53,626 nt of DNA from the NCBI GenBank assembly GCA_028688325.1, contig JAQTYI010000001.1, forward strand, positions 246,994 to 300,619, read 5' to 3'. The DNA is from Candidatus Portnoybacteria bacterium. Lineage in GTDB: Bacteria > Patescibacteriota > Minisyncoccia > Portnoybacterales > GWB1-42-6. The stretch's first letter is position 1, and every line of letters begins with the position of its first letter. The translations under genes and the position numbers were made by a program. Below are positions 7,346-53,621 of the stretch, piece by piece. A model generated the notes under the pieces. That model ran no database searches and had not been told where the DNA came from. It was given only the letters and a program-made list of their open reading frames with translations.

Positions 7346-7347
7346 GC

Positions 7348-10790: not shown

Positions 10791-10884
10791 TAACGCCTGT
10801 AACGCGAATCGGGCGGCCAATAATGCGGGTATGAATATTTATCGGCATTGTTCGCCGGCGGTTGGCGTTATCCGCGAATGCTGC

Positions 10885-12645: not shown

Positions 12646-12732
12646 CCAGCCAGCTTATCGGTTTGTCAGTCGGTTAGTTTGTCAGTTAAAATTTAAACTG
12701 AAAAACTGAAAAACTGAAAAACTGAATTTATA

Positions 12733-13980: not shown

Positions 13981-14074
13981 GAGCCTTCTCTGAATTTTCA
14001 ATCCAAGCGGCAACGAAAAGAAAACCTTGCCTTGCGCCATTTTTCCCCAAACAAAAATGTAATTAGAAGTTGAT

Positions 14075-14920: not shown

Positions 14921-15006
14921 AACCCGATTGAAAAAAATAAACATAATACGAAAAACGCGCCATTAAAATTAGTGGGTTGTTCAAAGATTTTTAACCGGGC
15001 AAAACG

Positions 15007-15510: not shown

Positions 15511-16061
15511 TGATAAATTTTCAATTTTTAAAAAACCGGGGAATAACCGCGGGATTTACATTGATCGAGATGTTGGTTTATATTGCGCTCGTGACCATCA
15601 TCGTTTCGGTCATTGTGGCCTTCAGTTTTTGGATGATCCAGATCAGCGCCAAAGCGAAAGTTAATTCCGAAGTGCTGGCCAATGCCAGGCGCGCCATGGA
15701 AATAATGACTTACGAGATCAGAAAGTCCAAAAGTGTTTACGCCCCGACATCCGTCTTTGATAAAAATCCCGGCCAACTGGGCCTGCAACAGACCGCCGCC
15801 GCCGGCTCCGAAGAGACGACAACCTTTGCGGATTTTTTCATTTGCAACCAGGCCTTGTGTCTGAAAAGAGAAAAAACCCCGCCCATCGCCTTGACCGGCA
15901 GCTCTGTCCGCGTTACCAATTTTTTATTCAACCGGCGGCTAAATTCGCTAAACGCCGAATCCATCCGGATAACGCTGAAAGTTGAATCCCTCGCCTCAAA
16001 CAAACCCGAATACACCAACTCAATAGAGCTGACGGGCGCGGCCAATTTGCGCTCCTACTAA
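15510..16061 (+). CDS. Prepilin-type N-terminal cleavage/methylation domain protein (PilW-like minor pilin)
   Basis: Class III signal ...GITAG|FTLIEMLVYIALVTIIV. Confidence 0.8.
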   Translation: MINFQFLKNRGITAGFTLIEMLVYIALVTIIVSVIVAFSFWMIQISAKAKVNSEVLANARRAMEIMTYEIRKSKSVYAPTSVFDKNPGQLGLQQTAAAGSEETTTFADFFICNQALCLKREKTPPIALTGSSVRVTNFLFNRRLNSLNAESIRITLKVESLASNKPEYTNSIELTGAANLRSY

Positions 16062-16062
16062 A

Positions 16063-17814: not shown

Positions 17815-17906
17815 CGCCGGGCCCGCCTTTTTGCCTGACAATCAACCGGGTTTTGTGGTAAAATAAGATAAATAATCCGTTTGCATTATTGTTAAAACCT
17901 CAAAAG

Positions 17907-18995
17907 ATGTTCAATTTGCCGAACTCCAGCATCCACGGCTTTGGCATAGATCTAAGCGACCTGTCGATTAAAATAATCGACCTGAAAAAAAAGGGCGGGA
18001 ATTTTGAATTGGCGAGTTTTGGCCGCCAGGAAATCCCGGCCGGCCTCATTGAAAACGGCGAAATAAAAAAAGAAGAAGAGCTGATCGCGCTCATAAAAAA
18101 ATCCGTTAAAGAAGTGAAGGGAAGGGGATTAAAAAGCGATTATTGCATCGTTTCTTTGCCGGAAACCGAATCGTTCGTGCGCCTGGTGCACTTGCCGCTG
18201 ATGAAAAAAGAAGAGATGGCTGAGGCCATCAAATGGGAGATAGAAGCCAATATCCCTTTGTCGCTGCCGGAAATTTATTATGATTGGCGCGTTATTGAGA
18301 CGGCTGCCGGCGCCCGCCAAGATTATCTGGATATTTTAATCGGCGTGCTGCCTCAAAGAACCGTTGACCCGTATTTAAGCGTTCTGAAAAAAGCCGGTTT
18401 AAAGCCGTTTGTTTTTGAGATTGAGTCGCTGGCTATCGCCCGGGCGCTGGTTCCGGGAGGATGCTGCGACAAGCCCCTGCTCATTATCGATGTCGGCGCC
18501 AAAAGAACCAGTTTGGCGATTTTTTCCGGCCAAACGGTTTATTTCACCGCCAGCTTGCCGATTTCAAATTCCTCTATTGTTGAAACAATGAGTGAAAAAC
18601 TGAATATTGACCAAGAAAAGGCCAAACAAATAAAAATAGAGCAGGGCCTTGATTACAAAAATCCTGGCAGCTTAACGCTGCGGGCGTTGGCTCCGCTGAT
18701 GGACGAAACAACAAAAAAAATTAAGGATTATATTGATTACTATCAGGAACATTTGCCGGCCGCACCCAATGCTCAGAGCAACAAAATAAGCAGTGCCTTG
18801 CTTTGCGGCGGAGGGGCCAATTTTGCCGGACTGCCGGAATTTTTAACCGAAAAATTGGGCTTCCCCGTTTTCCCGGGCAATCCGTGGTCCAATGTTTTCA
18901 AGGGCGCGCCAAAAAATATTTCGGGGCTCTCTTCCGGCGAGGCCTTGAGTTTTGCCACGGCCATCGGACTGGCCATCAGGGGGTTGAAAGAATAA
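17907..18995 (+). CDS. pilM: Type IV pilus assembly protein PilM (actin-like ATPase fold)
   Basis: GIDLSDLSIKIIDL start, size and position upstream of pilN/pilO-like genes. Confidence 0.85.
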   Translation: MFNLPNSSIHGFGIDLSDLSIKIIDLKKKGGNFELASFGRQEIPAGLIENGEIKKEEELIALIKKSVKEVKGRGLKSDYCIVSLPETESFVRLVHLPLMKKEEMAEAIKWEIEANIPLSLPEIYYDWRVIETAAGARQDYLDILIGVLPQRTVDPYLSVLKKAGLKPFVFEIESLAIARALVPGGCCDKPLLIIDVGAKRTSLAIFSGQTVYFTASLPISNSSIVETMSEKLNIDQEKAKQIKIEQGLDYKNPGSLTLRALAPLMDETTKKIKDYIDYYQEHLPAAPNAQSNKISSALLCGGGANFAGLPEFLTEKLGFPVFPGNPWSNVFKGAPKNISGLSSGEALSFATAIGLAIRGLKE

Positions 18996-42001: not shown

Positions 42002-44548
42002 ATGTCTTGTCATAATAGAAAATTCCTTCTTTCCGCCGTTCTGATAATTTTTATTGTCGGAGGATTTTTTGTTTGGCAATCCAATGTCGCCAAAGCTACA
42101 GATGTCGTACCAGCGCCGGCCGAAAATTTGAGTCCTGCGCAAGAGCTGCAAGAGGCCGACTATAAATCAAAGGCCTCTGCCCAAAATAATAATACAATCA
42201 CCGTCAACAATGCCAATAAAAACAATAATCCCGCCGATTGGGACCTGTATATACCGGTAGTTTTTCATATTGTCGGCGGATTGCTTTTCATGATCTTAAA
42301 ATTTTTAAACGGCATGGTCTGGCTTGGCGCCAATTTAGCCGATAAAATATTAGGCATTACTTCTTTTACCAGCGCTACTGTGGTTACTATCGGCTGGGGA
42401 ATAACGCGGGATCTGGCCAATATGTTTTTCGCCTTGATATTGCTCGTTATGTCTATCTCCACGATTTTGCAAATTGAAGGTTTTACCTACAAACAAATCC
42501 TTAAGCGCCTGATAATCGCCGCCCTGCTCATCAATTTCAGTTTGATGTTTGCCGGCATCATTATTGATTTTGCCCAGGTGATGACCAGTTTTTTTCTGAC
42601 CGCCGGCGCCGGCGAAGCGGGAATTTCGGCCAATTTAACCAACGGTTTAAAAATTGTCCAGGTTTTTAATTTCAGCGATGTTGACCGGTCAATTTTCCAG
42701 AAAGTGTCCGGTGCAATTTGGGGCCCAAGTTTGAAAATGATTATTGAACAAATCATGGCTGTAATTCTTTTCACCGCCGCAGCTTTTTCTTTTTTCGCTA
42801 TGAGTTTTTTTCTGATAGCCAGGATTGTCTGGATTTGGCTGCTTTTAATTGGCGCCCCCTTGGCCTGGATAGCGTTCATAGTGCCGAACGCTCCCGGAGA
42901 GCTGGGCGGTCTCTGGAACAGATGGTGGAAGGAATTCTTAAATTGGGTGTTTTTTGCGCCGATTTATTCTTTTTTCCTTTATCTGGCTTTAACCATCGCC
43001 AACATCCAAAATGGCCTTGGCCTGAATAATGCCTCAAATGAACTTGGTGCTTGGGGAAAGATGGGGACAGCTAATACTTTGCCGTTGCAATCTAAGTTTT
43101 TTGAAGCCCCGGAAACCATCCTAAAATATATAGTCATAATTATGATTCTGCTTGGCGGACTGACAGCAGCCAGAAAAATGGGCATAACCGGCGCGAACAC
43201 GGCCATGGGTTTGGTGGATAAAGCCGGCAACTGGATGAAAAATAAAGCTTGGGATTATTCCAAGCGGCCGGGGCAATGGGCCTACGATAGCTTAGCCAAC
43301 AAAGCCGCGCAGGGAACCGGCAAGATGTTTAGCGCCATCGGCTTTAAGAAATTCGGCAACCGCCTGACAGCCCAAGGCGTGCAGATGGAGTTGGAGCCGG
43401 CCGAACGGGAACGCCAAAAGGACTACGCCAAACGGCTTGGTTTTATGTCCGATAAAGACCTGCTGTATGAAACGAACAACGCTTACGGCATCAAGAAATT
43501 ACTGGCTGTGCGCCAAGCCAAAGAAAGAGGACTGCTGGAAAAAGGGCTCCCTACGGCGTTTGACGACACGCCAGAAGGCAAAAACAATTACAGCCAGGAA
43601 GCCAAGAACTTCAAAGAAGATTTATATAGCGATGAAGAGAAAAAGGATCCCGACCGCAACTCCAAATACAACACCGCCAAAAACGGCCACGCCAAGTACA
43701 TTGAAGACAAAAACAAGTATGACGAAAGTGAAGAAAACCAAGAAAAAACTAAAGAGTCAAAAGAAAGAGTTAACCAGGCGCTGTCAGTTCTTAATTCTTA
43801 CGGCCTCAAAGACGATAAAGGAAAGACCAAGGAAGGCCGAGATCTGGAGGATGTGCGCTTTGACGCCATAGCTGACGACACGGAAAGAGAGAAAGTTATC
43901 CGCCGGTCCAAAGAAAACGGCAACATAGAAAAAATAAAGCCGATTGTTTTTAACGACCCGAAAGCGGTGGCGTCATTTGTCAAAGAACTGTCGCCGCCCG
44001 AGCAAAACGAGGTCTACAAAAAATTAGGCAAGCAAACCAAAAAAGCCCTCGAGGAAGGATTGCGCAAATCTTTTGCCGAACTGCAGGGATTGACCGGCGG
44101 CCAACTGGCCGAAGAGTTGAAAAAACGCAATGCTTTTGCCGATATTACAGGCAAAGTGCACACAGCTTTTGCCAATAAAAACGGAATGCTGGACAATGAA
44201 GGAAAGAGGCAATTGGCAAAGTATGTTAGCACGATGACCGCGGCCAAATTGGCGGAGTTGAGGCACCCGGGCAGCGAACACGACATCGGCTTTGTGGCCC
44301 GCTACGCTTCCAGTGATTTAATTAACAGCGTGGGCAGAGAAAAAAGCATCAACACGACGCAAAAAGCAGCTTTCTATAACGGCGCGCAGGGCACCGTAAA
44401 GAGCGCCGGAGGCGGAAACATAAATATCGGTAAAAATGAAAATCCCGGCGCCTTAAATGCCTTTGAAGCGCCCGGCTGGAAAACATTTTCCGAACCAAAA
44501 AACAAGGCCGATGATAAATTCACCCAAAATGACATCGCCACAGCTTAA
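42002..44548 (+). CDS. Polytopic membrane protein, VirB6/TrbL-like, with a long Lys/Glu-rich C-terminal domain
   Basis: 848 aa, signal-like N-terminus, at least 6 TM helices between ~aa 80 and 400, then a charged hydrophilic tail. It sits beside PrgI/VirB4-like genes. Confidence 0.5.
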   Translation: MSCHNRKFLLSAVLIIFIVGGFFVWQSNVAKATDVVPAPAENLSPAQELQEADYKSKASAQNNNTITVNNANKNNNPADWDLYIPVVFHIVGGLLFMILKFLNGMVWLGANLADKILGITSFTSATVVTIGWGITRDLANMFFALILLVMSISTILQIEGFTYKQILKRLIIAALLINFSLMFAGIIIDFAQVMTSFFLTAGAGEAGISANLTNGLKIVQVFNFSDVDRSIFQKVSGAIWGPSLKMIIEQIMAVILFTAAAFSFFAMSFFLIARIVWIWLLLIGAPLAWIAFIVPNAPGELGGLWNRWWKEFLNWVFFAPIYSFFLYLALTIANIQNGLGLNNASNELGAWGKMGTANTLPLQSKFFEAPETILKYIVIIMILLGGLTAARKMGITGANTAMGLVDKAGNWMKNKAWDYSKRPGQWAYDSLANKAAQGTGKMFSAIGFKKFGNRLTAQGVQMELEPAERERQKDYAKRLGFMSDKDLLYETNNAYGIKKLLAVRQAKERGLLEKGLPTAFDDTPEGKNNYSQEAKNFKEDLYSDEEKKDPDRNSKYNTAKNGHAKYIEDKNKYDESEENQEKTKESKERVNQALSVLNSYGLKDDKGKTKEGRDLEDVRFDAIADDTEREKVIRRSKENGNIEKIKPIVFNDPKAVASFVKELSPPEQNEVYKKLGKQTKKALEEGLRKSFAELQGLTGGQLAEELKKRNAFADITGKVHTAFANKNGMLDNEGKRQLAKYVSTMTAAKLAELRHPGSEHDIGFVARYASSDLINSVGREKSINTTQKAAFYNGAQGTVKSAGGGNINIGKNENPGALNAFEAPGWKTFSEPKNKADDKFTQNDIATA

Positions 44549-44556
44549 TCTTTTTT

Positions 44557-45576
44557 ATGGCTAACTTAACCGCCCAAAAAATGCCGACCAGCCAACAAAG
44601 TTATCTTGCGCGCCTTGATACATTATTTTCGCAGCTGCCCGATCATGTTTACGACTGGCTGTTTTCCAGCCAAACCGGTCAAAGCGTAAAAACTATGGCC
44701 AAAAGATTCGGCTTAACCGAACAGCAAACAAGCCAGCTCTCCCGAGTTATCGGTCTAGCTGTTCTTAAAGATTTTCCCTTGCCTCAAATAATTCCAGAGA
44801 TAAGAGAATCGTTGAATATCAATGATTCTTTGGCCAAAGAAATCGCTTTGGCCGTCGCGCAAACGCAATTTTTATCTTTGCGCGACCACTTGATAGATGT
44901 TGAAAATTTTATCAGGCAGACAGGCGGGTCTTTGCCCGTCGCTCTGCCGCCAACACTAAAATCTTCTTTTGTCCCCGGCTCCATGGCTTCCAATGCGCCT
45001 GCTTCTCAAACGCCGCAAGTTAATATTATTCAAAAAACGCTCCGCCATCTGGCCAAAGATAACAAAGACGCGCTCAACCAGAATCTGACTACCGCGCCGA
45101 TAAAGATCGCCGACTTTGACCAGCCCGTGCGGCCCACCATAAAAAATTGGCTGGTGGATTATGTCAAACAAAAAGGAGCGGGACATCATGAAGCCATGGA
45201 GCGCGGCGACTATTTGTTCAATAGCATCAACAGCCGGCCGTTGCCGGAAAAAGAAAAATCACTGCTGGCGGAAATTTTACGGGCCTACGATGACGATACG
45301 CCTTTACCGATTAATGAGGCCGACCAAATGATTTTGCTGGATAAATTAACTCTTTCCGCCGCAAGCGCACCGGCATTGCCAAAACCAGAACCCGCGGCAA
45401 GACCGATGCCGGTTCCGCCAAAGATTCCCGTCCCGCCGCCTCCGCCCGCGCCAAACACAAATTACCGCGAACCGATATCCGAAATGGACATAACGGGACC
45501 GCTGACCAAGCCGGCACCTCCGCGGCCGGCGCCGCGCCTGAGCGGAAACATTATCGATTTAAAAGATTTGCAATAA
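44557..45576 (+). CDS. Hypothetical soluble protein with a Pro-rich C-terminus
   Basis: 339-aa ORF tightly packed in the operon, with a PKPEPAARPMPVPPKIPVPPPPPAP tract. Confidence 0.5.
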   Translation: MANLTAQKMPTSQQSYLARLDTLFSQLPDHVYDWLFSSQTGQSVKTMAKRFGLTEQQTSQLSRVIGLAVLKDFPLPQIIPEIRESLNINDSLAKEIALAVAQTQFLSLRDHLIDVENFIRQTGGSLPVALPPTLKSSFVPGSMASNAPASQTPQVNIIQKTLRHLAKDNKDALNQNLTTAPIKIADFDQPVRPTIKNWLVDYVKQKGAGHHEAMERGDYLFNSINSRPLPEKEKSLLAEILRAYDDDTPLPINEADQMILLDKLTLSAASAPALPKPEPAARPMPVPPKIPVPPPPPAPNTNYREPISEMDITGPLTKPAPPRPAPRLSGNIIDLKDLQ

Positions 45577-45652
45577 AGCGGCGCCAATACGCCAATGGCA
45601 CACGAACAACACCAATAAATTTGTGGGGATTCGCGTATTAGCGCCAGATTAA

Positions 45653-45940
45653 ATGAATTTCAATGTTCCGCAATTCATAGACATTGAAGATACCATCTTA
45701 GGGCCTCTGACGCTCAAGCAATTCTTATTGCTGATTGCCGCAGGAGCGTTCATAGCCCTTCTTTGGTGGGCCTTCAAGCTTTGGTTCGTGATTCTGATCG
45801 GCGGGCCTATTATCGCGGCCATTTTGGCCTCCATTTTCATTAAAATTAACGACCGGCCGTTGCCCAAAATTTTTTCCGCCTGGTTCAACTTTCAAACAAA
45901 ACCGAGGTTTTACATTTGGAAAAAAGATACAAAAAACTAA
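45653..45940 (+). CDS. PrgI family (VirB3-like) small membrane protein
   Basis: FNVPQFIDIEDTILGPLTLKQFLLLIAAG followed by two TM helices. It lies immediately upstream of VirB4. Confidence 0.75.
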   Translation: MNFNVPQFIDIEDTILGPLTLKQFLLLIAAGAFIALLWWAFKLWFVILIGGPIIAAILASIFIKINDRPLPKIFSAWFNFQTKPRFYIWKKDTKN

Positions 45941-45964
45941 AAACTACCAACTAAAAACTTATTC

Positions 45965-46597
45965 ATGCCCGCTTCTATACAACAAAAAATCATCATTGAA
46001 GACATTAAAGATGGCGTTATTATTTTGCAAGGCGGCGATTTGCGCGGTATTTTGATTGCGTCTTCCGTCAACTTTTCCTTGAAATCGGCGGATGAACAGG
46101 ATTCCATCATATTCAAATACCAAGGTTTTTTGAACTCGCTTGATTTTCCCGTCCAGATTTTAACGGTTTCGCGCCACCTGAATATTGATGGGTATTTGGC
46201 TTCCATTGAACAAAAAAGGAAAGAGCAAACCAGCGAGTTGTTGCGCATCCAGATCGCCGAATATCTTGATTTCATAAAAAACTTGGTGCAGGTGGGCAAT
46301 ATTATGGACCAGGCCTTTTATGTCGTCGTGCCCCTGTCAAGGGTTGAAAAAAAAGAAGCGGGTGTGCTGGAAAAATTAGGACTGACCCAAAAGCCGGCCG
46401 CCAGCGAAGAACTTAAAAGTTTTGACGAATTGAAATCCCAGCTCTGGCAGCGGCTGGAATACCTGTCCGGCGGGCTGGCTGGAATGGGCATAAAATCAAC
46501 GCCGCTTAATACCGAAGAAATCACCCAGCTTTTTTACCGGCTGTATAATATGGGGGTCAAAGTCGCGCCGACCGCGCCGGCCAAAGAGGAAATTTAA
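45965..46597 (+). CDS. VirB4/TrsE-like N-terminal segment (first part of a VirB4 split by an in-frame TAA)
   Basis: IIIEDIKDGVIILQGGDLRGILIASSVNFSLKSADEQDSIIFKYQGFLNSLDFPVQIL resembles the extreme N-terminus of Gram-positive-type VirB4 proteins. It is in the same reading frame as 46607-48424, separated by TAA + 3 codons. Confidence 0.55.
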   Translation: MPASIQQKIIIEDIKDGVIILQGGDLRGILIASSVNFSLKSADEQDSIIFKYQGFLNSLDFPVQILTVSRHLNIDGYLASIEQKRKEQTSELLRIQIAEYLDFIKNLVQVGNIMDQAFYVVVPLSRVEKKEAGVLEKLGLTQKPAASEELKSFDELKSQLWQRLEYLSGGLAGMGIKSTPLNTEEITQLFYRLYNMGVKVAPTAPAKEEI

Positions 46598-46606
46598 AAA
46601 AACCGT

Positions 46607-48424
46607 ATGGATTTCAGCTTTTTAATGAAAAAAAAGACAGCACCAACCGGCCAGCCGGCGCCTTCCGGCCAGCTTTTTGACGGCGCGTCCCAAACCGCCG
46701 GCCCGTCAATAAAAGATTTGATTTCGCCGGCTGGCATCAAAATTGATTCCAGCTCAATGCAAATTAACAATAAATTCGCCCGCTCCCTTTTTGTTTTCAC
46801 TTATCCCAGATATCTGGCCACCAACTGGTTTTCGCCGGTAATGTCGATGGACAAAGAATTCAATGTATCTATGTTCGTCTATCCGGTCGAAACGCCCTGG
46901 ATAATGAACCAGTTGAAAAAAAAGGTGGCGCAGGTGCAGTCGCAGATAAATGAACGCGAGACAAAAGGCCAAGTGCGCGACCCGATGCTGGAAACGGCGC
47001 TCAATGATATAGAAAATCTTCGGGACAGCTTGCTTCAAGGTAATGAAAAGTTTTTCAAATTCGGCCTCTACTTGACGATCTTCGGCGACAGCGCCAAAGA
47101 ACTGGACGATACGGAAAACGAGATTCGCTCCCTGCTTGAAGGCCGTATGGTCTACATAAAACCGGCTTCATTCCAGCAGGAACAGGGATTTAATTCAACG
47201 CTGCCGCTGGTCAAGGATGAATTGCAGATAAACACTTCGATGAACACGGGGCCGGTTTCCAGCGCCTTTCCTTTCGTGTCGGTCAACCTTTCCGACAACA
47301 AGGGAGTGCTCTATGGCATCAACCGCCACAACAACTCCCTGATAATCTTCGACCGCTTCTCGCTGGAAAACGCCAATGCCGTGGTTTTTGCTAAATCCGG
47401 CTCGGGTAAAAGCTATACCGTAAAACTTGAGGTCTTGCGCTCCTTAATGATGGGGACCGATGTTATCATCATTGACCCGGAAAACGAATATCAATATTTA
47501 ACGGAAACCGTTGGCGGCTCATTTATAAAAATTTCCCTGAATTCACCGCACCGGTTAAACCCCTTTGACCTGCCGGTGCCGCCGAAGGGGGAGCAGCCAG
47601 GAGATATTTTGCGCTCAACCATAATCAATTTGGTGGGGCTGCTGCGCATTATGCTGGGCGGAATTTCGCCGGAAGAAGATGCTATTTTAGACCGCGCCAT
47701 CGGAGAGACCTATGCTTCGCGCGATATCACCCCCCAGTCGGATTTTTCCAAGATAACCCCGCCGTTGCTTTCAGACCTCCATTCTATTTTAAAAAATATG
47801 CAGGGCGGATCCTCCCTGGCTTCGCGCCTGGAGCGCTTCACCACCGGCTCTTATTCTGGCCTATTCAACCAGCAAACCAATGTTGAGTTAAAAAATAAAT
47901 TAGTGACTTTTTCCATCCGCGACCTGGAAGAAGAATTGCGGCCGATTGCCATGTATATCGTTCTGCACTATATCTGGAATATTATCCGCTCCGAGCTCAA
48001 ACGGCGCATCTTGGTGGTAGACGAGGCCTGGGTTATGATGCGCCACGATGACGCCGCCTCTTTCCTTTTTGGCATCGCCAAGCGCTGCCGTAAATATTAT
48101 CTTGGTCTCACCACCATCACCCAGGATGTGGCCGACTTTATGAATTCTCCCTACGGCAAGCCCATTGTTTCCAATTCTTCCATGCAAATCCTGCTGCGCC
48201 AGTCGCCGGCTACGATAGATGTCATCCAAAAAACCTTCAACTTGACCGACCAGGAAAAGTATCTCCTGCTTGAAGGCAGCGTGGGGGAAGGAATATTTTT
48301 TGCGGGCTTGCAGCATGCGGCGATAAAAGTTATCGCTTCCTACACCGAAGACCAGATAATCACCTCCGACCCGCGGCAATTATTGGAGATACAAAAAGCC
48401 AAAGAAGAATTAGCGGAACAATAA
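46607..48424 (+). CDS. VirB4/TrsE-like T4SS ATPase (middle and C-terminal part)
   Basis: Walker A FAKSGSGKSY and Walker B ILVVDEAW. The Walker A sits at only ~aa 265, so about 200 N-terminal residues appear to be supplied by the preceding ORF. Confidence 0.8.
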   Translation: MDFSFLMKKKTAPTGQPAPSGQLFDGASQTAGPSIKDLISPAGIKIDSSSMQINNKFARSLFVFTYPRYLATNWFSPVMSMDKEFNVSMFVYPVETPWIMNQLKKKVAQVQSQINERETKGQVRDPMLETALNDIENLRDSLLQGNEKFFKFGLYLTIFGDSAKELDDTENEIRSLLEGRMVYIKPASFQQEQGFNSTLPLVKDELQINTSMNTGPVSSAFPFVSVNLSDNKGVLYGINRHNNSLIIFDRFSLENANAVVFAKSGSGKSYTVKLEVLRSLMMGTDVIIIDPENEYQYLTETVGGSFIKISLNSPHRLNPFDLPVPPKGEQPGDILRSTIINLVGLLRIMLGGISPEEDAILDRAIGETYASRDITPQSDFSKITPPLLSDLHSILKNMQGGSSLASRLERFTTGSYSGLFNQQTNVELKNKLVTFSIRDLEEELRPIAMYIVLHYIWNIIRSELKRRILVVDEAWVMMRHDDAASFLFGIAKRCRKYYLGLTTITQDVADFMNSPYGKPIVSNSSMQILLRQSPATIDVIQKTFNLTDQEKYLLLEGSVGEGIFFAGLQHAAIKVIASYTEDQIITSDPRQLLEIQKAKEELAEQ

Positions 48425-48428
48425 AAAA

Positions 48429-48809
48429 ATGCCTGAAGACACTAAATCACCGAATACAAAACAAGGACAAAAAACGAAACCGGCCGTTGCGCCGGACGAA
48501 GAGATTTTTTTTCCTTGGGGAATGCTTTTTGTCGCCATTCTTTTTGACTTTATCGGGCTGATCCCTCTGTTAAATTTTCTCTCGGAAATACTGGCCGGTT
48601 TGATTTTCGGCCTGTGGCAAAAATTTTATAACCCTAAACTTGATCCGGTATTGACATTCGTCGTCGCCAAAATAATTGATGCCCTATCTCTGGGGTTTCT
48701 TCCCAGCAACACCGGCATCGTGGTTTATGCTTATATCAAGAAAAAATCCCTGCAAGCGGCGTCAATTCCCTTAGGCCAAAAAGCAATGGGAAAAGTTTCT
48801 TCATCTTAA
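48429..48809 (+). CDS. Small polytopic membrane protein of the T4SS-like locus
   Basis: 126 aa with 3 hydrophobic helices. The start is 5 nt after the VirB4 stop. Confidence 0.5.
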   Translation: MPEDTKSPNTKQGQKTKPAVAPDEEIFFPWGMLFVAILFDFIGLIPLLNFLSEILAGLIFGLWQKFYNPKLDPVLTFVVAKIIDALSLGFLPSNTGIVVYAYIKKKSLQAASIPLGQKAMGKVSSS

Positions 48810-48820
48810 TCTCAACAAAT

Positions 48821-49561
48821 ATGAAAAAAACGGGGTCGCTCCATAAAATATTATTTCTGGCCGGCGTAATTGTTCTGATGGGTTTTGCCGCGCTGCCAGC
48901 CAAGCCGACGCTGTCGGCCAACAGCGATTTTATTTTGACTTGGTCTACCAGCTCATATGTTCCCCAAACATACGAAGGCAAGGCCCTGCCCGTGCGAGGC
49001 AGCGCCATAACTGTCTTCGCTCTGCCTGTCAAAAAATTAGCCCAAAATCCCGACTATCTGTATTACCGCTGGCTGCTGGACGACGATGTGGTCGGCTGGG
49101 CGGGCGGCATGGGAAAGTCCTCCTTTAAATTCTCGGCCGAAAAATGGGCCGGCGATTTTCATAAAGTAGAATCCCAAATTCTCGATTCCCAGCAACGAGC
49201 AGTATTATCGCAAGATTTCATTTATATAAAAATCGTTAACCCGGAGATTTTGATATCCGGCCCAGACAACAGCAATTATTCTCTTATAGAAAAAATAAGC
49301 GCCGGCACGGGAAAAAACATAAAACTGACCGCCCAGCCGTTTTTCTTCAATATCGGCAAGCTTTCCGACCTGAACTTTAGTTGGCAACTCAACGATCAGG
49401 AGCTTCCCAGCCAAGGAGACAATGATCAAAATATCCTCTCGTTGACGACGCCCAAAGGAATTCTTAGCGAAGCGATTTATAAAAACATCCGCCTGACGGT
49501 CAGCAGTAAAAATAACGATATGGAATGGGGCAGCATTAATTTATCCCTTGAAATACGCTGA
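48821..49561 (+). CDS. Secreted hypothetical protein
   Basis: Signal peptide (ILFLAGVIVLMGFAALPA), beta-rich composition, no motif recognised. Confidence 0.5.
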   Translation: MKKTGSLHKILFLAGVIVLMGFAALPAKPTLSANSDFILTWSTSSYVPQTYEGKALPVRGSAITVFALPVKKLAQNPDYLYYRWLLDDDVVGWAGGMGKSSFKFSAEKWAGDFHKVESQILDSQQRAVLSQDFIYIKIVNPEILISGPDNSNYSLIEKISAGTGKNIKLTAQPFFFNIGKLSDLNFSWQLNDQELPSQGDNDQNILSLTTPKGILSEAIYKNIRLTVSSKNNDMEWGSINLSLEIR

Positions 49562-49566
49562 TAATT

Positions 49567-50472
49567 TTGAAAAAAACACATGCCATTATTTTTCTTGCGG
49601 TATTTCTTTGCTTGTTGATCGGCGGCAAAGTTTTTGCCGCCGACTACAAAATAGAAGTTCCGCTACCCGGGCTCCCGTCCGGCTCTTCCATTTCCGACCC
49701 GGGCCAATATGTTAAATATCTTTTCATCTTCGGTTTGGCTTTAGCGGGATTTCTGGCGGTGGCAGCCATCGCCTACGGCGGGATAAAATATATGCTGTCG
49801 GGAACCACTATCACCAATGTGCAAGACGCCAAGGACTTGATCTACGGGGCATTGATAGGCATTGGCTTCCTGTTGGGCTCATACCTTTTGCTGTATACAA
49901 TAGACCCGACTTTGACGAATCTGTCTCTTGTGTCATTGAATAAAATAAATATCCCGAAAATCATTGAGGACTATGACCTGCCGGCGAATATAACTGCCGG
50001 CAAAACCGCAGACGAACTGAATGCCATAATAAGTAGCGGAAAAATAAACGGGCAGGCCACGGCCTCTTGCTCCATCGGAACTTGCGGCAGCCAAACGGTG
50101 CAAGGACATACGCTTTCCTCCGGAGCGGCGGCAAAATACTCCGATCTACGGCAAAACATTCAACAGGCATGCGCCGAGCAGGGATTATCATGCGATACCT
50201 CAATATCTTCTTCCGTTGACGGCCAGCACGCTTCAAGCTGCCACAAGCAAGGCACCGCCACCAGCGGCACCTGCGGCGACTTTGTCATCACCGCGCCGGA
50301 ATGCGGCGGCAGCATCAAGTCCTGCTCCCCGGCGGTTAAAGAAAAATATATCCAAGTCGCTTCCGGTGTTTTAAGCGGCTCCGGAGCCAAAGATATCCGC
50401 ACCTGCCTGAATGAATACAAGGTTAAGGGCTCAAGCTATTCGACCGGCGGACACTTCCATTGTAATTTTTAA
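49567..50472 (+). CDS. TrbC/VirB2-like T4SS pilin-family protein with Cys-rich C-terminal domain (paralog 1)
   Basis: Signal peptide, then a two-TM hairpin module (YVKYLFIFGLALAGFLAVAAIAYGG...GALIGIGFLLGSYLLLYTIDP), then a 170-aa tail with multiple Cys. Confidence 0.6.
   Translation: MKKTHAIIFLAVFLCLLIGGKVFAADYKIEVPLPGLPSGSSISDPGQYVKYLFIFGLALAGFLAVAAIAYGGIKYMLSGTTITNVQDAKDLIYGALIGIGFLLGSYLLLYTIDPTLTNLSLVSLNKINIPKIIEDYDLPANITAGKTADELNAIISSGKINGQATASCSIGTCGSQTVQGHTLSSGAAAKYSDLRQNIQQACAEQGLSCDTSISSSVDGQHASSCHKQGTATSGTCGDFVITAPECGGSIKSCSPAVKEKYIQVASGVLSGSGAKDIRTCLNEYKVKGSSYSTGGHFHCNF
49663..49925 (+). repeat. 263-bp near-identical direct repeat, copy 1 (N-terminal module of pilin paralog 1)
   Basis: Matches 50581-50843 with a single mismatch seen (gttaaAtatc vs gttaaGtatc). 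Confidence 0.9.
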
Positions 50473-50478
50473 TCTCTT

Positions 50479-51153
50479 ATGGATATTCTGAATAAAAAAT
50501 TATTTATCTTCTTTGGCCTCATATTATGCGCCTGGCTTTTTGCCTTGCCGGCGCAAGCGGCCTATGAGGTTCAAATCGCCCTACCCGGGCTCCCGTCCGG
50601 CTCTTCCATTTCCGACCCGGGCCAATATGTTAAGTATCTTTTCATCTTCGGTTTGGCTTTAGCGGGATTTCTGGCGGTGGCAGCCATCGCCTACGGCGGG
50701 ATAAAATATATGCTGTCGGGAACCACTATCACCAATGTGCAAGACGCCAAGGACTTGATCTACGGGGCATTGATAGGCATTGGCTTCCTGTTGGGCTCAT
50801 ACCTTTTGCTGTATACAATAGACCCGACTTTGACGAATCTGTCGCCCAGGGTGCCGCCAGTCATCAATATTTCCGCGCCAGCCGCGCCGACGCCAGGAAC
50901 CCAAAACTGCAATCCGAGTTGCCAAACCGGATATAGATGCGATCCTTACAGAAACTATACTTGTGTTAAAATAGAAGTGACCACCCCTGGAATGACAGGG
51001 AATCAAACTCCCGGCCAATGCCAAGAATTCAAAACAATACCAAGCGGATGCGCGCAAGGCCATAAGGTGTGGAATCCTAATACCTGTATGTGCGAGGGAT
51101 GCGGTGACAGCTATAAATGGGATTACTCGACAAAAAGTTGCGTGCTCAAATAA
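50479..51153 (+). CDS. TrbC/VirB2-like T4SS pilin-family protein with a different Cys-rich C-terminal domain (paralog 2)
   Basis: The two-TM module is identical to that of 49567-50472. The unrelated ~100-aa tail carries multiple Cys residues (NCNPSCQTGYRCD...CMCEGCGDSYKWDYSTKSC). Confidence 0.6.
   Translation: MDILNKKLFIFFGLILCAWLFALPAQAAYEVQIALPGLPSGSSISDPGQYVKYLFIFGLALAGFLAVAAIAYGGIKYMLSGTTITNVQDAKDLIYGALIGIGFLLGSYLLLYTIDPTLTNLSPRVPPVINISAPAAPTPGTQNCNPSCQTGYRCDPYRNYTCVKIEVTTPGMTGNQTPGQCQEFKTIPSGCAQGHKVWNPNTCMCEGCGDSYKWDYSTKSCVLK
50581..50843 (+). repeat. 263-bp near-identical direct repeat, copy 2 (N-terminal module of pilin paralog 2)
   Basis: See 49663-49925. Confidence 0.9.
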
Positions 51154-51169
51154 TAAATAATATCCGCGT

Positions 51170-52351
51170 ATGAACACAAAAAAAATTCTCATTATTGCTT
51201 CTGTTTTACTGGCTCTATCGCTGGCTACACTGTTGGTTTATAATTTCTTTTTTAAGGCGCCAACCGGAACTGCTCCCCGGGAAACCGGCGTCGGAGCGCT
51301 GCCGAGTGGAAGCGCCGGGAAGGGAAGCGGCGGATCTTCTTTGCCCGGAGACACCAATGGAACCCAAGGCCAGGCGGCCTTGAAAATAAGGCCTGTCAGC
51401 AAAGAGCCGGTTCTGTCGCCGACCATCGGCGCCGACGGCCAGACGGTAAAATATTACACCCTCTCCAACGGCAATATTTTTGAGTCGGATTTTTTGGGCG
51501 GCAACCTTAAAAAAATATCCTCGGTCACCCTAAACGGCCTGCTTAAAGCGCTCTGGTCGCCGGATAAAAACGGGGTTATCGGCGTTTTTTCCGATAACAA
51601 TAAAATCAAAAAATATTTTTACAATTATATAAACAACCAGTCGTCGCTCCTCAATGAAAAAATCGGCTATGCGGCTTTCTCGCCGGACAGCAAGAAAATC
51701 TCTTACCAGTTCATCGACAATCAAAGCGGCCAAAATAACATCAGCACGGCAAATCCGGATGGCTCAAATTATAAGACCATCTTCAAAACCCGACTGGATA
51801 ATCTCATCGTTGAGTGGCCTGTCAAAGAAAAAATTTCCTTGCGCCAACCGCCAAGCGGCCTGGCCCAGGGCATACTTTATGCCATAAATTCCGAGACAGG
51901 GGATTTCACCAAGGTGCTGAGCGATATTTTCGGGCTCAGCGCGAAGTGGTCGCCCAAGGCCGACAAGATCCTTTATTCCTCAACGGACGACAGAGGAAAA
52001 AATCCCAAATTAACCCTATCCGACAGCACCGGCGCCAACTTTAAAAACCTAAAGCTGGCCGGCCTGGCTGATAAATGCGTCTGGGGCAAAGACGACCGGA
52101 CAATTTTTTGCGCCCTGCCCCAGGAGATATCAGAGAACGCCGTCTGGCCCGATGACTATTATAAAGGACTCGTCATTTTAGAGGATGATTTTTACAAGAT
52201 TAACCTGGAGACGGACACCAAAACAAAAATCCTGGGCTCTTCCGACCAAGGAAGCTATGACGCCCAGGAGCTGTTCCTCTCACCCAAAGAAGATTACCTG
52301 TTTTTCGTCAATAAGCGCGATGGCCTGCTTTATAGCATAAAAACACAATAA
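51170..52351 (+). CDS. Membrane-anchored TolB-like beta-propeller (PD40 repeat) protein
   Basis: N-terminal TM helix. Repeats such as FSPDSKKISYQF...NPDGSNYKTIF and WSPKADKILYSS. Confidence 0.6.
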   Translation: MNTKKILIIASVLLALSLATLLVYNFFFKAPTGTAPRETGVGALPSGSAGKGSGGSSLPGDTNGTQGQAALKIRPVSKEPVLSPTIGADGQTVKYYTLSNGNIFESDFLGGNLKKISSVTLNGLLKALWSPDKNGVIGVFSDNNKIKKYFYNYINNQSSLLNEKIGYAAFSPDSKKISYQFIDNQSGQNNISTANPDGSNYKTIFKTRLDNLIVEWPVKEKISLRQPPSGLAQGILYAINSETGDFTKVLSDIFGLSAKWSPKADKILYSSTDDRGKNPKLTLSDSTGANFKNLKLAGLADKCVWGKDDRTIFCALPQEISENAVWPDDYYKGLVILEDDFYKINLETDTKTKILGSSDQGSYDAQELFLSPKEDYLFFVNKRDGLLYSIKTQ

Positions 52352-53621
52352 TCCAGAAAACCAGCGCCAGGTCGTTTTTCCAAAAAGTGGTGTCTGCCAA
52401 GCCGTGAACCAGAACATATACCATCATAGCCGCCAAAAATATTGCCGGCCATGATGGTATTTTGTTTAATGATTTGAACGCCTGCCGGAAAAAAATCACC
52501 AGCAGCCAAATAAAACCGGCCAGGCCCAAAAGTCCCGCCTGCATCCACCAGGCCAGAAATAAGTTCTGGGGCTGAGGCACGGCCCACTCAAGATACGGCA
52601 CGGAAAAATATTTTTGGTATTCCAAATAATATCGCTGGAACATTCCCGGCCCGATACCCAAAATCCAGCTATCTTCCAAGATCTTTCCGGCCGCTTGCCA
52701 GATCATCAGGCGCGACTGCCAAGAAGAACGGGAAGAAGTAAACAGGCCGGCTAATTTATCGCTGTGCGCGCCATACATCTGAGAAAATAGCATAAACGCA
52801 AACGCAAGAAACAAGAAACAAGAAATAAGAAATAAATGCTTGCGATTTATTATTTTATATTTCCAAAAATAAAACAAAACGAAGGCCGCGGCCGCAAACA
52901 GTCCCAGCCAGGCGCCATAAGAATAAGTGAAACATAAAACAAGAAGCAAGAAGCAAGAAACAAAAAACAAGAAAGCTTTTTGATAAATTCTTTTTGTTTC
53001 CAACCACAAACCAACTCCAGCCAAAAGACCCGGCGCTAAAAACATTGCCAAGTGGTTGGGCGACAGATAAAAAGCCGACAAACGGCCATCAAAGGTCAGC
53101 CGGCTAAAAAAGAAATACCCCGCACTTATCGTCGCCACCGCGGCGCCGGAAGCCAACAAGGCCGAAAAAAATACTTTTACGCCGTCTTTTTCTCCCAGCA
53201 CATTATTAAAAATAGCGGCAAAGATTATCGGCGCTAAAAACCATGACTTTAAAATGCCTAACCCTGCCTTCAAGTCGGGCGAGAAGATCGTTGAAATAAG
53301 AACCCCCGCCAAGACCAATAATATCGGCCAAAATAATTTACTTTTTATAATTCTCTCGGTTCCTTTTTTTGTCATTCCCGCGAAGGCGGGAATCCAGGCC
53401 CGAATTAACCTGGATCCCGGGTCAAGCCCGGGATGACAATATAGCTGAATCTTTTTTATAAGCCAGACAAAAACAAAAACCCAAATCAGCGCCTCCAAAA
53501 CAGTCAGGGGCCACGAGCCGATCTTCAGCAAATAAAGCGGCGAGCAGAAGATGATCAGCCAGCCGCCCCAAACCGGCTTTTTCCAGGAAATAAATGCAAA
53601 AATCGCTAAGCCAAAAAACAA
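52308..53621 (-). CDS. O-antigen ligase (Wzy_C)-like polytopic membrane protein carrying an in-frame palindromic-element insert. The N-terminus may extend beyond the window.
   Basis: At least 10 TM helices and a YSYGAWLGLFAAAAF segment typical of Wzy_C. Its 3' end overlaps the convergent 51170-52351 gene by 44 bp. Confidence 0.65.
   Translation of the reverse strand: MFFGLAIFAFISWKKPVWGGWLIIFCSPLYLLKIGSWPLTVLEALIWVFVFVWLIKKIQLYCHPGLDPGSRLIRAWIPAFAGMTKKGTERIIKSKLFWPILLVLAGVLISTIFSPDLKAGLGILKSWFLAPIIFAAIFNNVLGEKDGVKVFFSALLASGAAVATISAGYFFFSRLTFDGRLSAFYLSPNHLAMFLAPGLLAGVGLWLETKRIYQKAFLFFVSCFLLLVLCFTYSYGAWLGLFAAAAFVLFYFWKYKIINRKHLFLISCFLFLAFAFMLFSQMYGAHSDKLAGLFTSSRSSWQSRLMIWQAAGKILEDSWILGIGPGMFQRYYLEYQKYFSVPYLEWAVPQPQNLFLAWWMQAGLLGLAGFIWLLVIFFRQAFKSLNKIPSWPAIFLAAMMVYVLVHGLADTTFWKNDLALVFWIIVFLCYKAGHRAY
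53370..53439 (-). mobile_element. Palindromic MITE-like element inserted in-frame within the O-antigen-ligase-like gene
   Basis: TGTCATTCCCGCGAAGGCGGGAATCCAGG...CCTGGATCCCGGGTCAAGCCCGGGATGACAA. It is translated on the minus strand as CHPGLDPGSRLIRAWIPAFAGMTKK. Confidence 0.75.

What the first reader, a model, noticed from the sequence alone, without database searches (positions are those of the whole stretch)
49567..51153. Tandem pilin-like paralogs with a near-identical 263-bp N-terminal module and unrelated Cys-rich C-terminal domains
49663-49925 and 50581-50843 differ at a single position (A/G). The signal peptides upstream of the repeat and the C-terminal tails downstream show no similarity. 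Both tails are rich in Cys, which suggests disulfide-knotted, surface-exposed domains. The sharp identity boundaries at both ends point to recent gene conversion or cassette-type recombination. This would keep the membrane or polymerisation module identical while displaying alternative tip or surface domains. Canonical VirB2/TrbC pilins have no such appended domains.
Basis: seen in the sequence. Interest (0 to 1): 0.7.

Follow-up and report, generated by a model that had tools for sequence, protein, structure and literature searches.

The report
Pilin genes sharing one identical module
Two neighbouring genes in the secretion-system cluster of an ultrasmall (Patescibacteria) bacterium carry the same pilin-like membrane module, kept almost base-for-base identical by repeated copying between them, joined to two unrelated outer domains, one of which looks like a cell-wall-cutting enzyme.

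Summary
Window 49663-49925 and 50581-50843 match at 262 of 263 bases, and the one difference is synonymous.

The shared module is a VirB2-like T4SS_pilin (PF18895) helical hairpin. It sits in a chromosomal, Gram-positive-type (MPF-FATA-like) type IV secretion cluster of a Patescibacteria genome.

The same tandem arrangement at the same locus occurs in ten genomes, counting the window. Within a genome, module DNA identity is 78-100%. Between genomes it is 59-74%. Orthologous tails diverge between genomes about as fast as the modules do, and intermediate genomes show mosaic tracts. This is recurrent, homology-driven gene conversion confined to the module.

Tail A is a rare domain found only fused to this module. 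Its confident model best matches the Hedgehog/DD-peptidase (LAS) zinc-hydrolase fold, and it has invariant His/Asp/Glu/His. Relatives carry SLT, YkuD or M15-like tails instead. Tail B is a small 10-Cys domain of unknown fold.

There are no silent cassettes and no dedicated recombinase. A near-identical metagenome contig lacks exactly one repeat period, which is either a deletion or an assembly collapse.

Verdict: a new variant of the known Patescibacteria pilin arrays. Incorporation into a pilus and enzymatic activity are both inferred, not shown.

The parts
42002..44548 (+). 848-aa polytopic membrane protein with a large hydrophilic C-terminal half; VirB6-like candidate, first gene of the conserved cluster
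   Evidence: 8 hydrophobic segments within residues 5-384. The syntenic ortholog in L030 has a faint TrbL_3 hit. The window protein has no Pfam hit. The assignment is weak.
44557..45576 (+). 339-aa conserved soluble protein of unknown function, with a Pro-rich C-terminus
   Evidence: Syntenic in L001, L002, L026 and L029. No family hit.
45653..45940 (+). PrgI/VirB3-like small membrane protein (95 aa)
   Evidence: ORF with two hydrophobic segments. The 95-aa gene at the matching position in L001 carries PF12666 PrgI (L001 aligns to the window).
45965..46597 (+). TraC-like/TrsD-like protein; the N-terminal domain of VirB4 encoded as a separate ORF (210 aa)
   Evidence: NCBIfam TrsD/TraD 1.6e-7 and matches to the N-terminal part of the VirB4 models. 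Orthologs carry PF26593 TraC-like.
46607..48424 (+). VirB4-like T4SS ATPase, CD1110 (Gram-positive conjugation) family, 605 aa
   Evidence: NF045971 E=1.2e-113, 380.9 bits against a cut-off of 325. Pfam P-loop_TraG, AAA_10, DUF87.
48429..48809 (+). 126-aa membrane protein of unknown function, conserved in synteny
   Evidence: Two hydrophobic segments. A gene of 108-159 aa occupies the same position in all related loci.
48821..49561 (+). 246-aa secreted or anchored protein of unknown function, conserved in synteny directly before the pilin-like genes
   Evidence: N-terminal hydrophobic segment 4-29. A gene of 224-248 aa occupies the same position in all related loci.
49567..50472 (+). ORF A (301 aa): signal peptide (49567-49638, cleavage after VFA inferred), T4SS_pilin hairpin module, linker, and C-terminal tail A (T1), a Hedgehog/DD-peptidase-like putative zinc hydrolase (domain ~50008-50469)
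   Evidence: ORF. E=5.4e-39 against an HMM of 119 short PF18895-type pilins. AF2 helices 45-77 and 82-112. Tail model pLDDT 91.2. Foldseek top 27 hits are Hedgehog N-domains, followed by VanY. Invariant H226, D238, E283, H298.
49663..49925 (+). Repeat copy 1: converted tract covering the pilin module (LPG...TNLS)
   Evidence: 263 nt with 1 synonymous mismatch to copy 2.
50479..51153 (+). ORF B (224 aa): signal peptide (50479-50559, cleavage after AQA inferred), identical T4SS_pilin module, Pro-rich linker, and tail B (T2), a ~100-aa domain with 10 Cys and unknown fold
   Evidence: ORF. E=5.6e-37 against the short-pilin HMM. Cys positions. Only a weak CXCXC hit. No PDB sequence match. T2-like tails occur in P0021, P0023, P0031, P0053, P0055 and inside P0012.
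50581..50843 (+). Repeat copy 2: converted tract covering the pilin module
51170..52351 (+). 393-aa signal-anchored beta-propeller protein (TolB/Tricorn-like), last gene of the conserved + strand block
   Evidence: TIGR02800 TolB propeller 5e-9, below the cut-off. Orthologs have faint or weak Tricorn_N/Tricorn_2nd hits. N-terminal hydrophobic segment.

Best explanation
ORF A and ORF B are two co-transcribed members of a Patescibacteria-specific class of 'tailed' VirB2-like pilins. They sit in a chromosomal T4SS cluster of the monoderm (MPF-FATA-like) type.

Anatomy. Each protein has a Sec signal peptide, a two-helix T4SS_pilin hairpin, a linker, and a C-terminal domain. With this topology the C-terminal domain ends up outside the membrane.

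What keeps the modules identical. The pilin module of the two genes is homogenised by recurrent RecA-type intrachromosomal gene conversion between the tandem copies. The tract is limited on both sides by loss of homology: diverged signal peptides at the 5' end and unrelated tails at the 3' end. This step is shown by comparative evidence.

What the tails are. They are interchangeable extracytoplasmic domains.
- Tail A is most likely a LAS-type (Hedgehog/DD-peptidase fold) zinc peptidoglycan peptidase.
- Relatives carry SLT lytic transglycosylase, YkuD L,D-transpeptidase or M15-like tails in the same position.
- Tail B is a small disulfide-rich domain, probably for binding or adhesion.

Inferred function. 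The common module is the platform that inserts these domains into the membrane and docks them to, or builds them into, the T4SS pilus or channel. The array would then supply the VirB1-like cell-wall-remodelling function, and possibly target contact, for the secretion system. Keeping the module identical keeps every tailed subunit compatible with the same assembly machinery.
For: Pilin family:
- An HMM built from 119 short pilins, most annotated PF18895, matches ORF A and ORF B at E=5e-39 and 6e-37.
- The module profile retrieves 264 proteins. The 120 listed are mostly 97-156 aa and annotated PF18895.
- P0007, an ortholog of A, passes the Pfam cut-off (28.9 bits against 26.6), as do P0049 and P0050.
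- Signal peptide plus two hydrophobic helices.

T4SS context:
- VirB4 of the CD1110 family at E=1e-113, with TraC-like and PrgI-like neighbours, in the same order in every related locus. This matches the published Patescibacteria T4SS (PMC12102498).

Gene conversion:
- Within-genome repeats: 263 bp at 99.6% (window), 239 bp at 100% (L002 core), 260 bp at 100% (L003), ~255 bp at 97% with all 7 differences synonymous (L006), 291 bp at 99.7% (L031), 284 bp at 100% (L032), and 78-89% in L026, L027, L029 and L033.
- Between-genome module DNA identity is 59-74%.
- Orthologous tails in different genomes are 64-83% identical at protein level, against 67-76% for the modules of the same genes. The module is therefore not intrinsically slower-evolving.
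- The three genes of L027 show mosaic identity blocks.

Tail A:
- Only 17 cluster representatives among 1.84 billion proteins. All the full-length ones inspected follow a pilin module.
- Invariant CH, GTCxD, EY, TG and H across 18 sequences.
- Model pLDDT 91.2, pTM 0.87.
- The top 27 PDB fold hits are Hedgehog N-domains (probability up to 0.98, E from 7e-3), followed by VanY.

Enzyme tails in relatives:
- YkuD at 3e-17 and SLT at 7e-24; the T3 tail has weak Peptidase_M15_3 hits.
Against: - The window proteins themselves score only 12.6 bits against the Pfam PF18895 model, below the cut-off of 26.6.
- The tail A fold match is modest: TM about 0.40 and Foldseek E above 1e-3.
- No sequence or profile method links tail A to M15/LAS families or to the T3 tail.
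- The putative His-Asp spacing is 11 residues, longer than the 3-6 I recall for LAS enzymes.
- Nothing here shows that the module polymerises, that the tails stay attached after maturation, or that any enzyme is active.
- No tail-less pilin was found in the 53 kb window, but the remaining ~735 kb of the genome was not examined.
- Gene conversion could be a neutral by-product of tandem similarity, with no selection for compatibility.
Confidence: 0.7

Rival explanations
1. A very recent tandem duplication of one pilin gene was followed by replacement of one tail. The identity then reflects the youth of the duplicate, and there is no ongoing gene conversion.
For: For the window alone, one synonymous difference in 263 bp fits a young duplicate equally well. 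Arrays vary in size from 2 to 3 genes, so duplications do happen.
Against: The same tail types recur across genomes at 64-83% identity (T3 in L003/L006/L027, T6 in L003/L026, SLT in L027/L029), and each is attached to the module sequence of its own genome. This rival would need an independent recent duplication plus re-acquisition of the same old tails in at least six lineages. Mosaic identity blocks among the three L027 genes indicate partial tracts. The signal peptides are also diverged while the module is not.
Confidence: 0.07
2. This is a programmed variation system of the pilE/pilS or shufflon kind. The identical module acts as a recombination handle to switch which tail is expressed, and the deletion form seen in contig L001 is one switched state.
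For: L001 is 99.6-99.8% identical to the window but lacks exactly one 918-bp period. It encodes an in-frame chimera of signal peptide A, the module and tail B (P0011). Different genomes pair tail A with different partner tails.
Against: Both genes are complete, with a signal peptide and a start codon, 6 bp apart in one operon-like block. No further copies or silent cassettes exist in the window. No other junction variants turned up in the metagenome scan. No invertase or reverse transcriptase is nearby. A deletion between direct repeats is irreversible, so it is not a switch. Collapse of a 263-bp repeat is also a common short-read assembly error.
Confidence: 0.08
3. The module is only a membrane anchor and never forms a filament. 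The proteins are membrane-tethered cell-wall enzymes or binders that happen to reuse a pilin-derived hairpin, and their homogenisation is neutral.
For: From my own knowledge, Gram-positive T4SS peptidoglycan hydrolases such as PrgK, TraG of pIP501 and CwlT have N-terminal membrane anchors. PMC12102498 notes that VirB1 homologues are associated with virB4 in Paceibacteria. Bulky 100-180 aa tails on every subunit might hinder helical packing. Conversion needs no selection.
Against: The module retains the full T4SS_pilin domain at high significance, including the conserved C-terminal TIDPxLxNLSP end that short pilins share. In the window these are the only VirB2-like genes of the cluster. In Southlakia the pilin array is essential and is considered pilus-forming. 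This rival overlaps the best explanation and differs only on polymerisation.
Confidence: 0.3
4. The duplicated module in the window is an assembly artefact.
For: The collapsed form exists in another assembly (L001). MAG assemblies can mis-join repeats.
Against: The two copies differ by a SNP and have unique flanks that each encode a conserved, orthologous tail. The identical architecture is found in independent assemblies from NCBI, JGI and ENA. ORF A and ORF B are both intact.
Confidence: 0.02

Closest known systems
VirB2-like pilin arrays of Patescibacteria T4SS (Quinonero-Coronel et al. 2025, PMC12102498; Wang et al. 2023, PMC10633639)
   Same: The same protein family (PF18895/VirB2-like). 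The same MPF-FATA-like cluster with VirB4, TraC/TrsD-like and PrgI. The same chromosomal setting close to dnaA, seen in relatives L002 and L003. Tandem arrays of 2-11 pilin genes.
   Different: Published arrays are described as sequence-divergent within an array, with mean 25% and maximum 54% amino-acid identity. Here the module is 99-100% identical. The published pilins are treated as small proteins. Here each carries a 100-180 aa C-terminal domain. I found no mention of fusions or gene conversion in those papers.
Concerted evolution and diversification of tandem T4SS pilus genes in Bartonella Trw (Nystedt et al. 2008 Mol Biol Evol; reference 82 of PMC12102498; content recalled from my own knowledge)
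   Same: Tandemly amplified T4SS pilus-component paralogs whose copies are homogenised within a genome by recombination while the surface-exposed parts diversify.
   Different: That system is Gram-negative (MPF-T) with plain VirB2/VirB5 homologues and no appended enzyme domains. Here homogenisation is confined to a sub-genic module, and variability lies in wholly unrelated domains and not in point substitutions.
VirB1-type peptidoglycan hydrolases of Gram-positive T4SS (PrgK, TraG of pIP501, CwlT, TcpG)
   Same: Membrane-anchored cell-wall hydrolases encoded beside virB4. Relatives of ORF A and ORF B carry SLT domains in the same gene position.
   Different: The anchor here is a complete pilin domain and not a simple transmembrane helix. 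The window's own tails are not SLT, CHAP or NlpC/P60. Tail A is a new LAS-like domain, and tail B has no recognisable enzyme features.
Flagellinolysin / proteolytic flagellins (Eckhard et al. 2017, PMC5595980)
   Same: A filament subunit with conserved polymerisation regions and an enzyme (metallopeptidase) domain in its surface-exposed part, giving an enzymatically active filament. This is an analogy for the 'enzymatic pilus' reading.
   Different: A different filament system. The flagellin enzyme is an insertion in the middle of the protein, not a C-terminal fusion. Filament incorporation is shown for flagellinolysin and is not shown here.
LAS zinc hydrolases (Hedgehog N-domain / D-Ala-D-Ala peptidases, MEROPS M15, VanX/VanY)
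   Same: Predicted fold of tail A. Conserved His...Asp...His-x-His pattern with an acidic residue. A cell-wall-related context.
   Different: No significant sequence or profile similarity. A longer His-Asp spacing. Five putative disulfides. Found exclusively fused to a pilin module.

Membership tests
T4SS_pilin (Pfam PF18895; VirB2-like pilins of Patescibacteria) | Significant match to the family profile | tested here: met
   The curated Pfam model gives only 12.6 bits, below the cut-off of 26.6. An HMM built from 119 short family members, most annotated PF18895, gives E=5.4e-39 for A and 5.6e-37 for B. The module profile retrieves PF18895 proteins. P0007, an ortholog of A, passes the Pfam cut-off.
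T4SS_pilin (Pfam PF18895; VirB2-like pilins of Patescibacteria) | Signal peptide followed by two hydrophobic helices forming a hairpin | tested here: met
   Hydropathy segments 1-27, 47-75 and 90-110 in A, and 3-29, 49-77 and 92-112 in B. AF2 helices 4-24, 45-77 and 82-112.
T4SS_pilin (Pfam PF18895; VirB2-like pilins of Patescibacteria) | Encoded within or next to a virB4-containing T4SS cluster | tested here: met
   VirB4 (46607-48424) lies 1.1 kb upstream on the same strand. The synteny is conserved in all related loci.
T4SS_pilin (Pfam PF18895; VirB2-like pilins of Patescibacteria) | Small single-domain protein (~100-150 aa) | tested here: not met
   A is 301 aa and B is 224 aa, with 180-aa and 101-aa tails. 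The 119 newly retrieved family hits that were fetched are 97-156 aa.
T4SS_pilin (Pfam PF18895; VirB2-like pilins of Patescibacteria) | Polymerises into an extracellular pilus | not testable with these tools
   This needs microscopy or biochemistry. It has not been shown directly even for the plain Patescibacteria pilins.
LAS / Hedgehog-DD-peptidase fold zinc hydrolases (tail A) | Hedgehog/DD-peptidase fold | tested here: inconclusive
   High-confidence model (pLDDT 91.2). The top 27 PDB hits are all Hedgehog N-domains (probability 0.69-0.98, E 0.007-0.16, TM ~0.40), followed by VanY. The ranking is consistent, but the scores fall short of the usual significance levels.
LAS / Hedgehog-DD-peptidase fold zinc hydrolases (tail A) | His, Asp, His metal ligands plus a catalytic acidic or His residue, conserved | tested here: met
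   H226, D238, E283 and H298 are invariant in 18 sequences down to 25% identity, and H296 is nearly so. The His-Asp spacing is 11.
LAS / Hedgehog-DD-peptidase fold zinc hydrolases (tail A) | Sequence or profile match to an M15/Hedgehog family | tested here: not met
   Pfam gives no consistent hit: one of 18 members hits Peptidase_M15_4 at E=0.055. PDB profile searches are empty. hhalign against the T3 tail gives E=0.14-0.21.
VirB1-like T4SS peptidoglycan hydrolase (functional class) | Recognised muralytic domain (SLT, CHAP/NlpC-P60, M23) | tested here: not met
   Neither window protein has one. Relatives in the same gene position do: SLT in P0019, P0044, L027, L029 and L032, and YkuD in P0015 and P0022.
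Silent-cassette pilin variation (Neisseria pilE/pilS type) | One expression locus plus promoterless, truncated silent copies that donate variable segments | tested here: not met
   Both copies are full ORFs with a start codon and a signal peptide. No other copies exist in the window. The homogenised part is the constant region, not the variable one.
Concerted evolution by gene conversion of tandem paralogs | Paralogs within a genome are more similar than orthologs between genomes, over a bounded tract, with mosaicism | tested here: met
   Within-genome 78-100% against between-genome 59-74% module DNA identity. Tails follow orthology. Mosaic tracts in L027. In L006 all 7 differences are synonymous.

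The most novel reading that the evidence does not exclude
These proteins are true pilus subunits. The T4SS of this Patescibacteria clade would then build an 'enzymatic pilus' whose surface is studded with peptidoglycan-cleaving and binding domains, a pilus counterpart of flagellinolysin. An epibiont would use it to breach the cell wall of its host. Gene conversion keeps every differently armed subunit able to co-polymerise in one lattice. This would give a concrete, testable function for the essential but unexplained Patescibacteria T4SS.
Probability: 0.2. Interest if true: 0.85.

Novelty: new variant of a known kind. Interest (0 to 1): 0.6.

Why it matters
The T4SS and its pilin array are essential in the one genetically tractable Patescibacteria species. 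Even so, the role of the system is described as completely unknown (PMC11665869; PMC10633639).

This locus shows that, in a Parcubacteria/Paceibacteria-type clade, the only VirB2-like genes of the cluster are fusions. A constant pilin module is joined to interchangeable extracytoplasmic domains, several of them recognisable cell-wall enzymes (SLT, YkuD, M15-like, and a new LAS-like domain). The module is actively homogenised within each genome.

Three things follow:
- It links the 'missing VirB1' and the 'unexpected VirB2' of these monoderm systems in a single protein.
- It points to cell-wall remodelling or penetration as part of what the machine does.
- It provides a clean natural example of sub-genic concerted evolution that separates a platform from its payloads.

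It also defines a new, rare domain family (tail A) with a predicted metal site that can be tested biochemically.

Tried and rejected
- **Direct family scans of ORF A and ORF B.** Pfam and NCBIfam gave nothing significant. Membership had to be established through orthologs and custom profiles.
- **Full-length AF2 model of A.** It was poor (pLDDT 65) and its fold search was uninformative. The best pilin-like hit was the Aeropyrum conjugation pilus 8dfu at E=3.1.
- **Sequence and profile searches of tail A against PDB.** All were empty.
- **hhalign of tail A against the M15-like T3 tail.** Not significant. Homology between tail A and T3 is therefore not claimed.
- **Per-member Pfam scan of the tail A alignment.** Only noise.
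- **Tail B.** No PDB sequence match and only a marginal CXCXC hit.
- **Metagenome scan for other junctions downstream of the module.** It returned only the L001 contig, so there is no evidence for extra cassettes at strain level.
- **A dedicated diversification system.** A DGR reverse transcriptase or invertase was looked for across the window and not found. The only recombinase is a Xer-type integrase 26 kb away.
- **Tail DNA identities from forced global alignment.** These were discarded as meaningless for unrelated sequence. Protein comparisons were used instead.
- **One script timed out** and was redone.
Full report
**1.

Window 49663-49925 and 50581-50843 are direct repeats of 263 nt, 918 nt apart. 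They differ only at 49716 (A) versus 50634 (G), which changes AAA to AAG, both lysine. Identity ends abruptly on both sides. A 30-mer from the repeat occurs twice in the window and never in 100 shuffles.

The repeats lie in frame inside two adjacent + strand ORFs. ORF A is 49567-50472 (301 aa, TTG start). ORF B is 50479-51153 (224 aa), and the two are separated by 6 nt. Each protein has 11 cysteines, one in the signal peptide and ten in the C-terminal tail. The tails are unrelated to each other.

**2. Genomic context**

The window is chromosomal DNA. It carries IF-2, PNPase, UppS, KsgA, UvrD, a ComM-like Mg-chelatase-family protein, a type IV pilus cluster and a Xer-type recombinase. Its source is a 788,852-bp contig of assembly GCA_028710785.1. 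All relatives found come from Patescibacteria (Parcubacteria/Paceibacteria-type) MAGs.

ORF A and ORF B sit in a tightly packed + strand block, in this order:
- an 848-aa polytopic protein (VirB6-like candidate)
- a 339-aa protein
- a PrgI/VirB3-like protein
- a TraC/TrsD-like protein
- a VirB4 ATPase of the CD1110 family (E=1e-113)
- a 126-aa membrane protein
- a 246-aa secreted protein
- ORF A, then ORF B
- a 393-aa propeller protein

The same gene order is found in every related locus. In L002 and L003 it lies a few kb from rnpA, yidC and dnaA. This is the MPF-FATA-like T4SS of Patescibacteria described by Quinonero-Coronel et al. 2025 (PMC12102498).

**3. The shared module is a VirB2-like pilin domain**

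The curated PF18895 model only grazes the window proteins: 12.6 bits against a cut-off of 26.6. Other evidence establishes the family:
- P0007, an ortholog of A, passes the cut-off, as do P0049 and P0050.
- A profile of the module alone retrieves 264 proteins. The 120 listed are almost all 97-156 aa and annotated PF18895.
- An HMM built from 119 of those short pilins matches ORF A and ORF B at E=5e-39 and 6e-37. It matches nothing else in the window.

The topology is a signal peptide plus a two-helix hairpin. This places the N-terminus and the tail outside the cell, which fits the many paired cysteines. Ordinary family members end about 10-40 residues after the conserved TI(D/N)PxLxNL motif.

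**4. Why the module is identical: concerted evolution**

I compared arrays at the same locus in ten genomes, counting the window. The within-genome repeats are:

| Genome | Repeat | Identity |
|---|---|---|
| window | 263 bp | 99.6% |
| L002 | 239-bp core | 100% |
| L003 | 260 bp | 100% |
| L006 | ~255 bp | 97% (all 7 differences synonymous) |
| L031 | 291 bp | 99.7% |
| L032 | 284 bp | 100% |
| L026, L027, L029, L033 | module | 78-89% |

Between genomes, module DNA identity is only 59-74%.

The tails follow orthology instead. The T3, T6 and SLT tails are 64-83% identical at protein level between genomes. The modules of those same genes are 67-76% identical. The module is therefore not intrinsically slower-evolving, and purifying selection alone cannot make the paralogs identical. 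Each old tail type is attached to the module version of its own genome.

The three genes of L027 show alternating identical and divergent blocks, shared by different pairs. These are partial conversion tracts. The tract ends move by up to about 30 bp between lineages. That fits homology-limited recombination and not a site-specific mechanism.

In related genomes the paralogous modules have not diverged along with the tails.

**5. The tails**

*Tail A (T1).* This domain is rare, with 17 cluster representatives among 1.84 billion proteins. Every full-length example inspected follows a pilin module. Across 18 sequences down to 25% identity, the invariant residues are C-H, G-T-C-x-D, E-Y, T-G and the last H. 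In ORF A these are H226, D238, E283 and H298.

With that alignment, AlphaFold gives a confident model (pLDDT 91.2, pTM 0.87). Its 27 best PDB matches are all Hedgehog N-terminal domains (probability up to 0.98, E from 0.007, TM about 0.40), followed by VanY D,D-peptidases. That is the LAS zinc-hydrolase fold predicted from the motif.

No sequence or profile method confirms the link. I rate 'LAS-like peptidoglycan peptidase' at about 0.6.

*Tails in relatives.* In the same gene position, relatives carry:
- SLT lytic transglycosylase (E=7e-24)
- YkuD L,D-transpeptidase (E=3e-17)
- a Cys-rich domain with SxHxxGxAxD...DHIH motifs and weak Peptidase_M15_3 hits (T3)
- small Cys-rich domains

*Tail B (T2).* This is a ~100-aa, 10-Cys domain with no detectable relatives of known structure. 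T2-like domains recur in the family. In P0012 one is inserted between the module and a T1 domain, which suggests an accessory or binding role.

Tail A is partnered with T2 in the window and in L033, with a different small tail in L031, and with SLT in L032. On an evolutionary scale the tails are combinatorial payloads on a constant platform.

**6. The L001 contig**

A JGI metagenome contig (Ga0265297_10013754) is 99.6-99.8% identical to window 42900-53269. It lacks exactly one 918-bp period and encodes an in-frame chimera: signal peptide A, the module, then tail B (P0011). At the SNP position it carries the copy-2 allele (G).

This is either a real deletion by recombination between the repeats in a sister strain, or a short-read collapse of a 263-bp repeat. 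Reads are needed to decide. A scan of metagenome contigs for the 3' end of the module found no other junctions.

**7. What it is not**

- There are no silent cassettes.
- There is no nearby reverse transcriptase or invertase.
- Both genes are complete and appear co-transcribed. Gaps are 4-25 nt and there is no convincing terminator between them.

A programmed switching system is therefore unlikely.

**8. Comparison with what is known**

Tandem VirB2-like pilin arrays next to virB4 are already described for Patescibacteria. They are reported as sequence-divergent within arrays, with mean 25% and maximum 54% identity, and as essential in Southlakia. Concerted evolution of tandem T4SS pilus genes is known from Bartonella Trw (Nystedt 2008, cited; content from my own knowledge). 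Enzyme-bearing filament subunits are known from flagellinolysin (PMC5595980).

I did not find any of the following in the literature searched:
- fusion of the pilin domain to cell-wall-active or Cys-rich domains
- sub-genic homogenisation of only the pilin module
- the tail A domain family

Hence the rating 'new variant of a known kind'.

**9. Mechanism and confidence**

| Status | Claim | Confidence |
|---|---|---|
| Shown | Repeat, gene structure, family membership, T4SS context, comparative signature of gene conversion | ~0.9 |
| Probable | Tail A is a LAS-type metallohydrolase acting on peptidoglycan | ~0.6 |
| Inferred | The array supplies VirB1-like wall remodelling and contact functions, via a module that docks to or builds into the T4SS pilus or channel | see below |

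Within the inferred part, true incorporation into a filament (an 'enzymatic pilus') rates about 0.2. A non-polymerising anchor role rates about 0.3, and the remainder is undecided.

Noticed in passing
L001 (JGI Ga0265297_10013754) 6684-7352, against window 49567-51153: A contig 99.6-99.8% identical to the window lacks exactly one 918-bp repeat period. It encodes an in-frame chimera (P0011): signal peptide A, the module (G allele), then tail B. It is either a natural deletion variant or an assembly collapse.
   Followed up: partly
window 45965-46597 and 46607-48424: VirB4 is split. The N-terminal TraC/TrsD-like domain (210 aa) and the ATPase (605 aa) are separate ORFs 9 nt apart. The split is conserved in all related loci, so it is not a frameshift error.
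   Followed up: partly
window ~10831-18995: A type IV pilus cluster lies in the same window: PilB-like T2SSE ATPase, PilC-like T2SSF, PilM, and unannotated ORFs between them that may be pilins. This genome therefore has both T4P and T4SS surface machineries within 40 kb.
   Followed up: no
L003 463-828 and 1195-1596; L026 1655-2041; L027 1302-1697; L029 1353-1721; L033 1-179 and 655-1050: Small PF05635 (23S_rRNA_IVP / Avd-like four-helix bundle) and PDDEXK_3 genes are inserted next to the PrgI-like gene, upstream of the TraC-like gene, in several relatives. They are absent from the window. They may be selfish or mobile ORFs. No reverse transcriptase was seen.
   Followed up: no
P0012 (411 aa), P0064 (2879 aa), P0070 (1152 aa): P0012 fuses the module, a T2-like Cys-rich domain and the T1 domain in one protein. 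P0064 and P0070 are very long proteins with 18 and 11 separate matches to part of the tail A profile, so a sub-motif of tail A occurs as a repeat elsewhere.
   Followed up: no
P0017 against P0016 (Parcubacteria GW2011_GWA2_43_9b and a relative): P0017 equals P0016 apart from a 46-residue internal deletion in the T3 tail, between two 'LTE/TET' microhomologies. It is another length variant in this gene family.
   Followed up: no
L003 4232-4286 and 4387-4441: A perfect 55-bp direct repeat lies in the intergenic region between VirB4 and the following small membrane-protein gene of a relative.
   Followed up: no
window 38915-39895: A 326-aa protein with a bacterial thrombospondin type 3 (TSP3_bac) calcium-binding repeat lies just upstream of the T4SS block. 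It is followed by a 670-aa protein with no family match.
   Followed up: no
window 49567 (and L001 6684): ORF A starts with TTG. The nearby ATG is out of frame. The TTG start is conserved in the L001 strain.
   Followed up: partly
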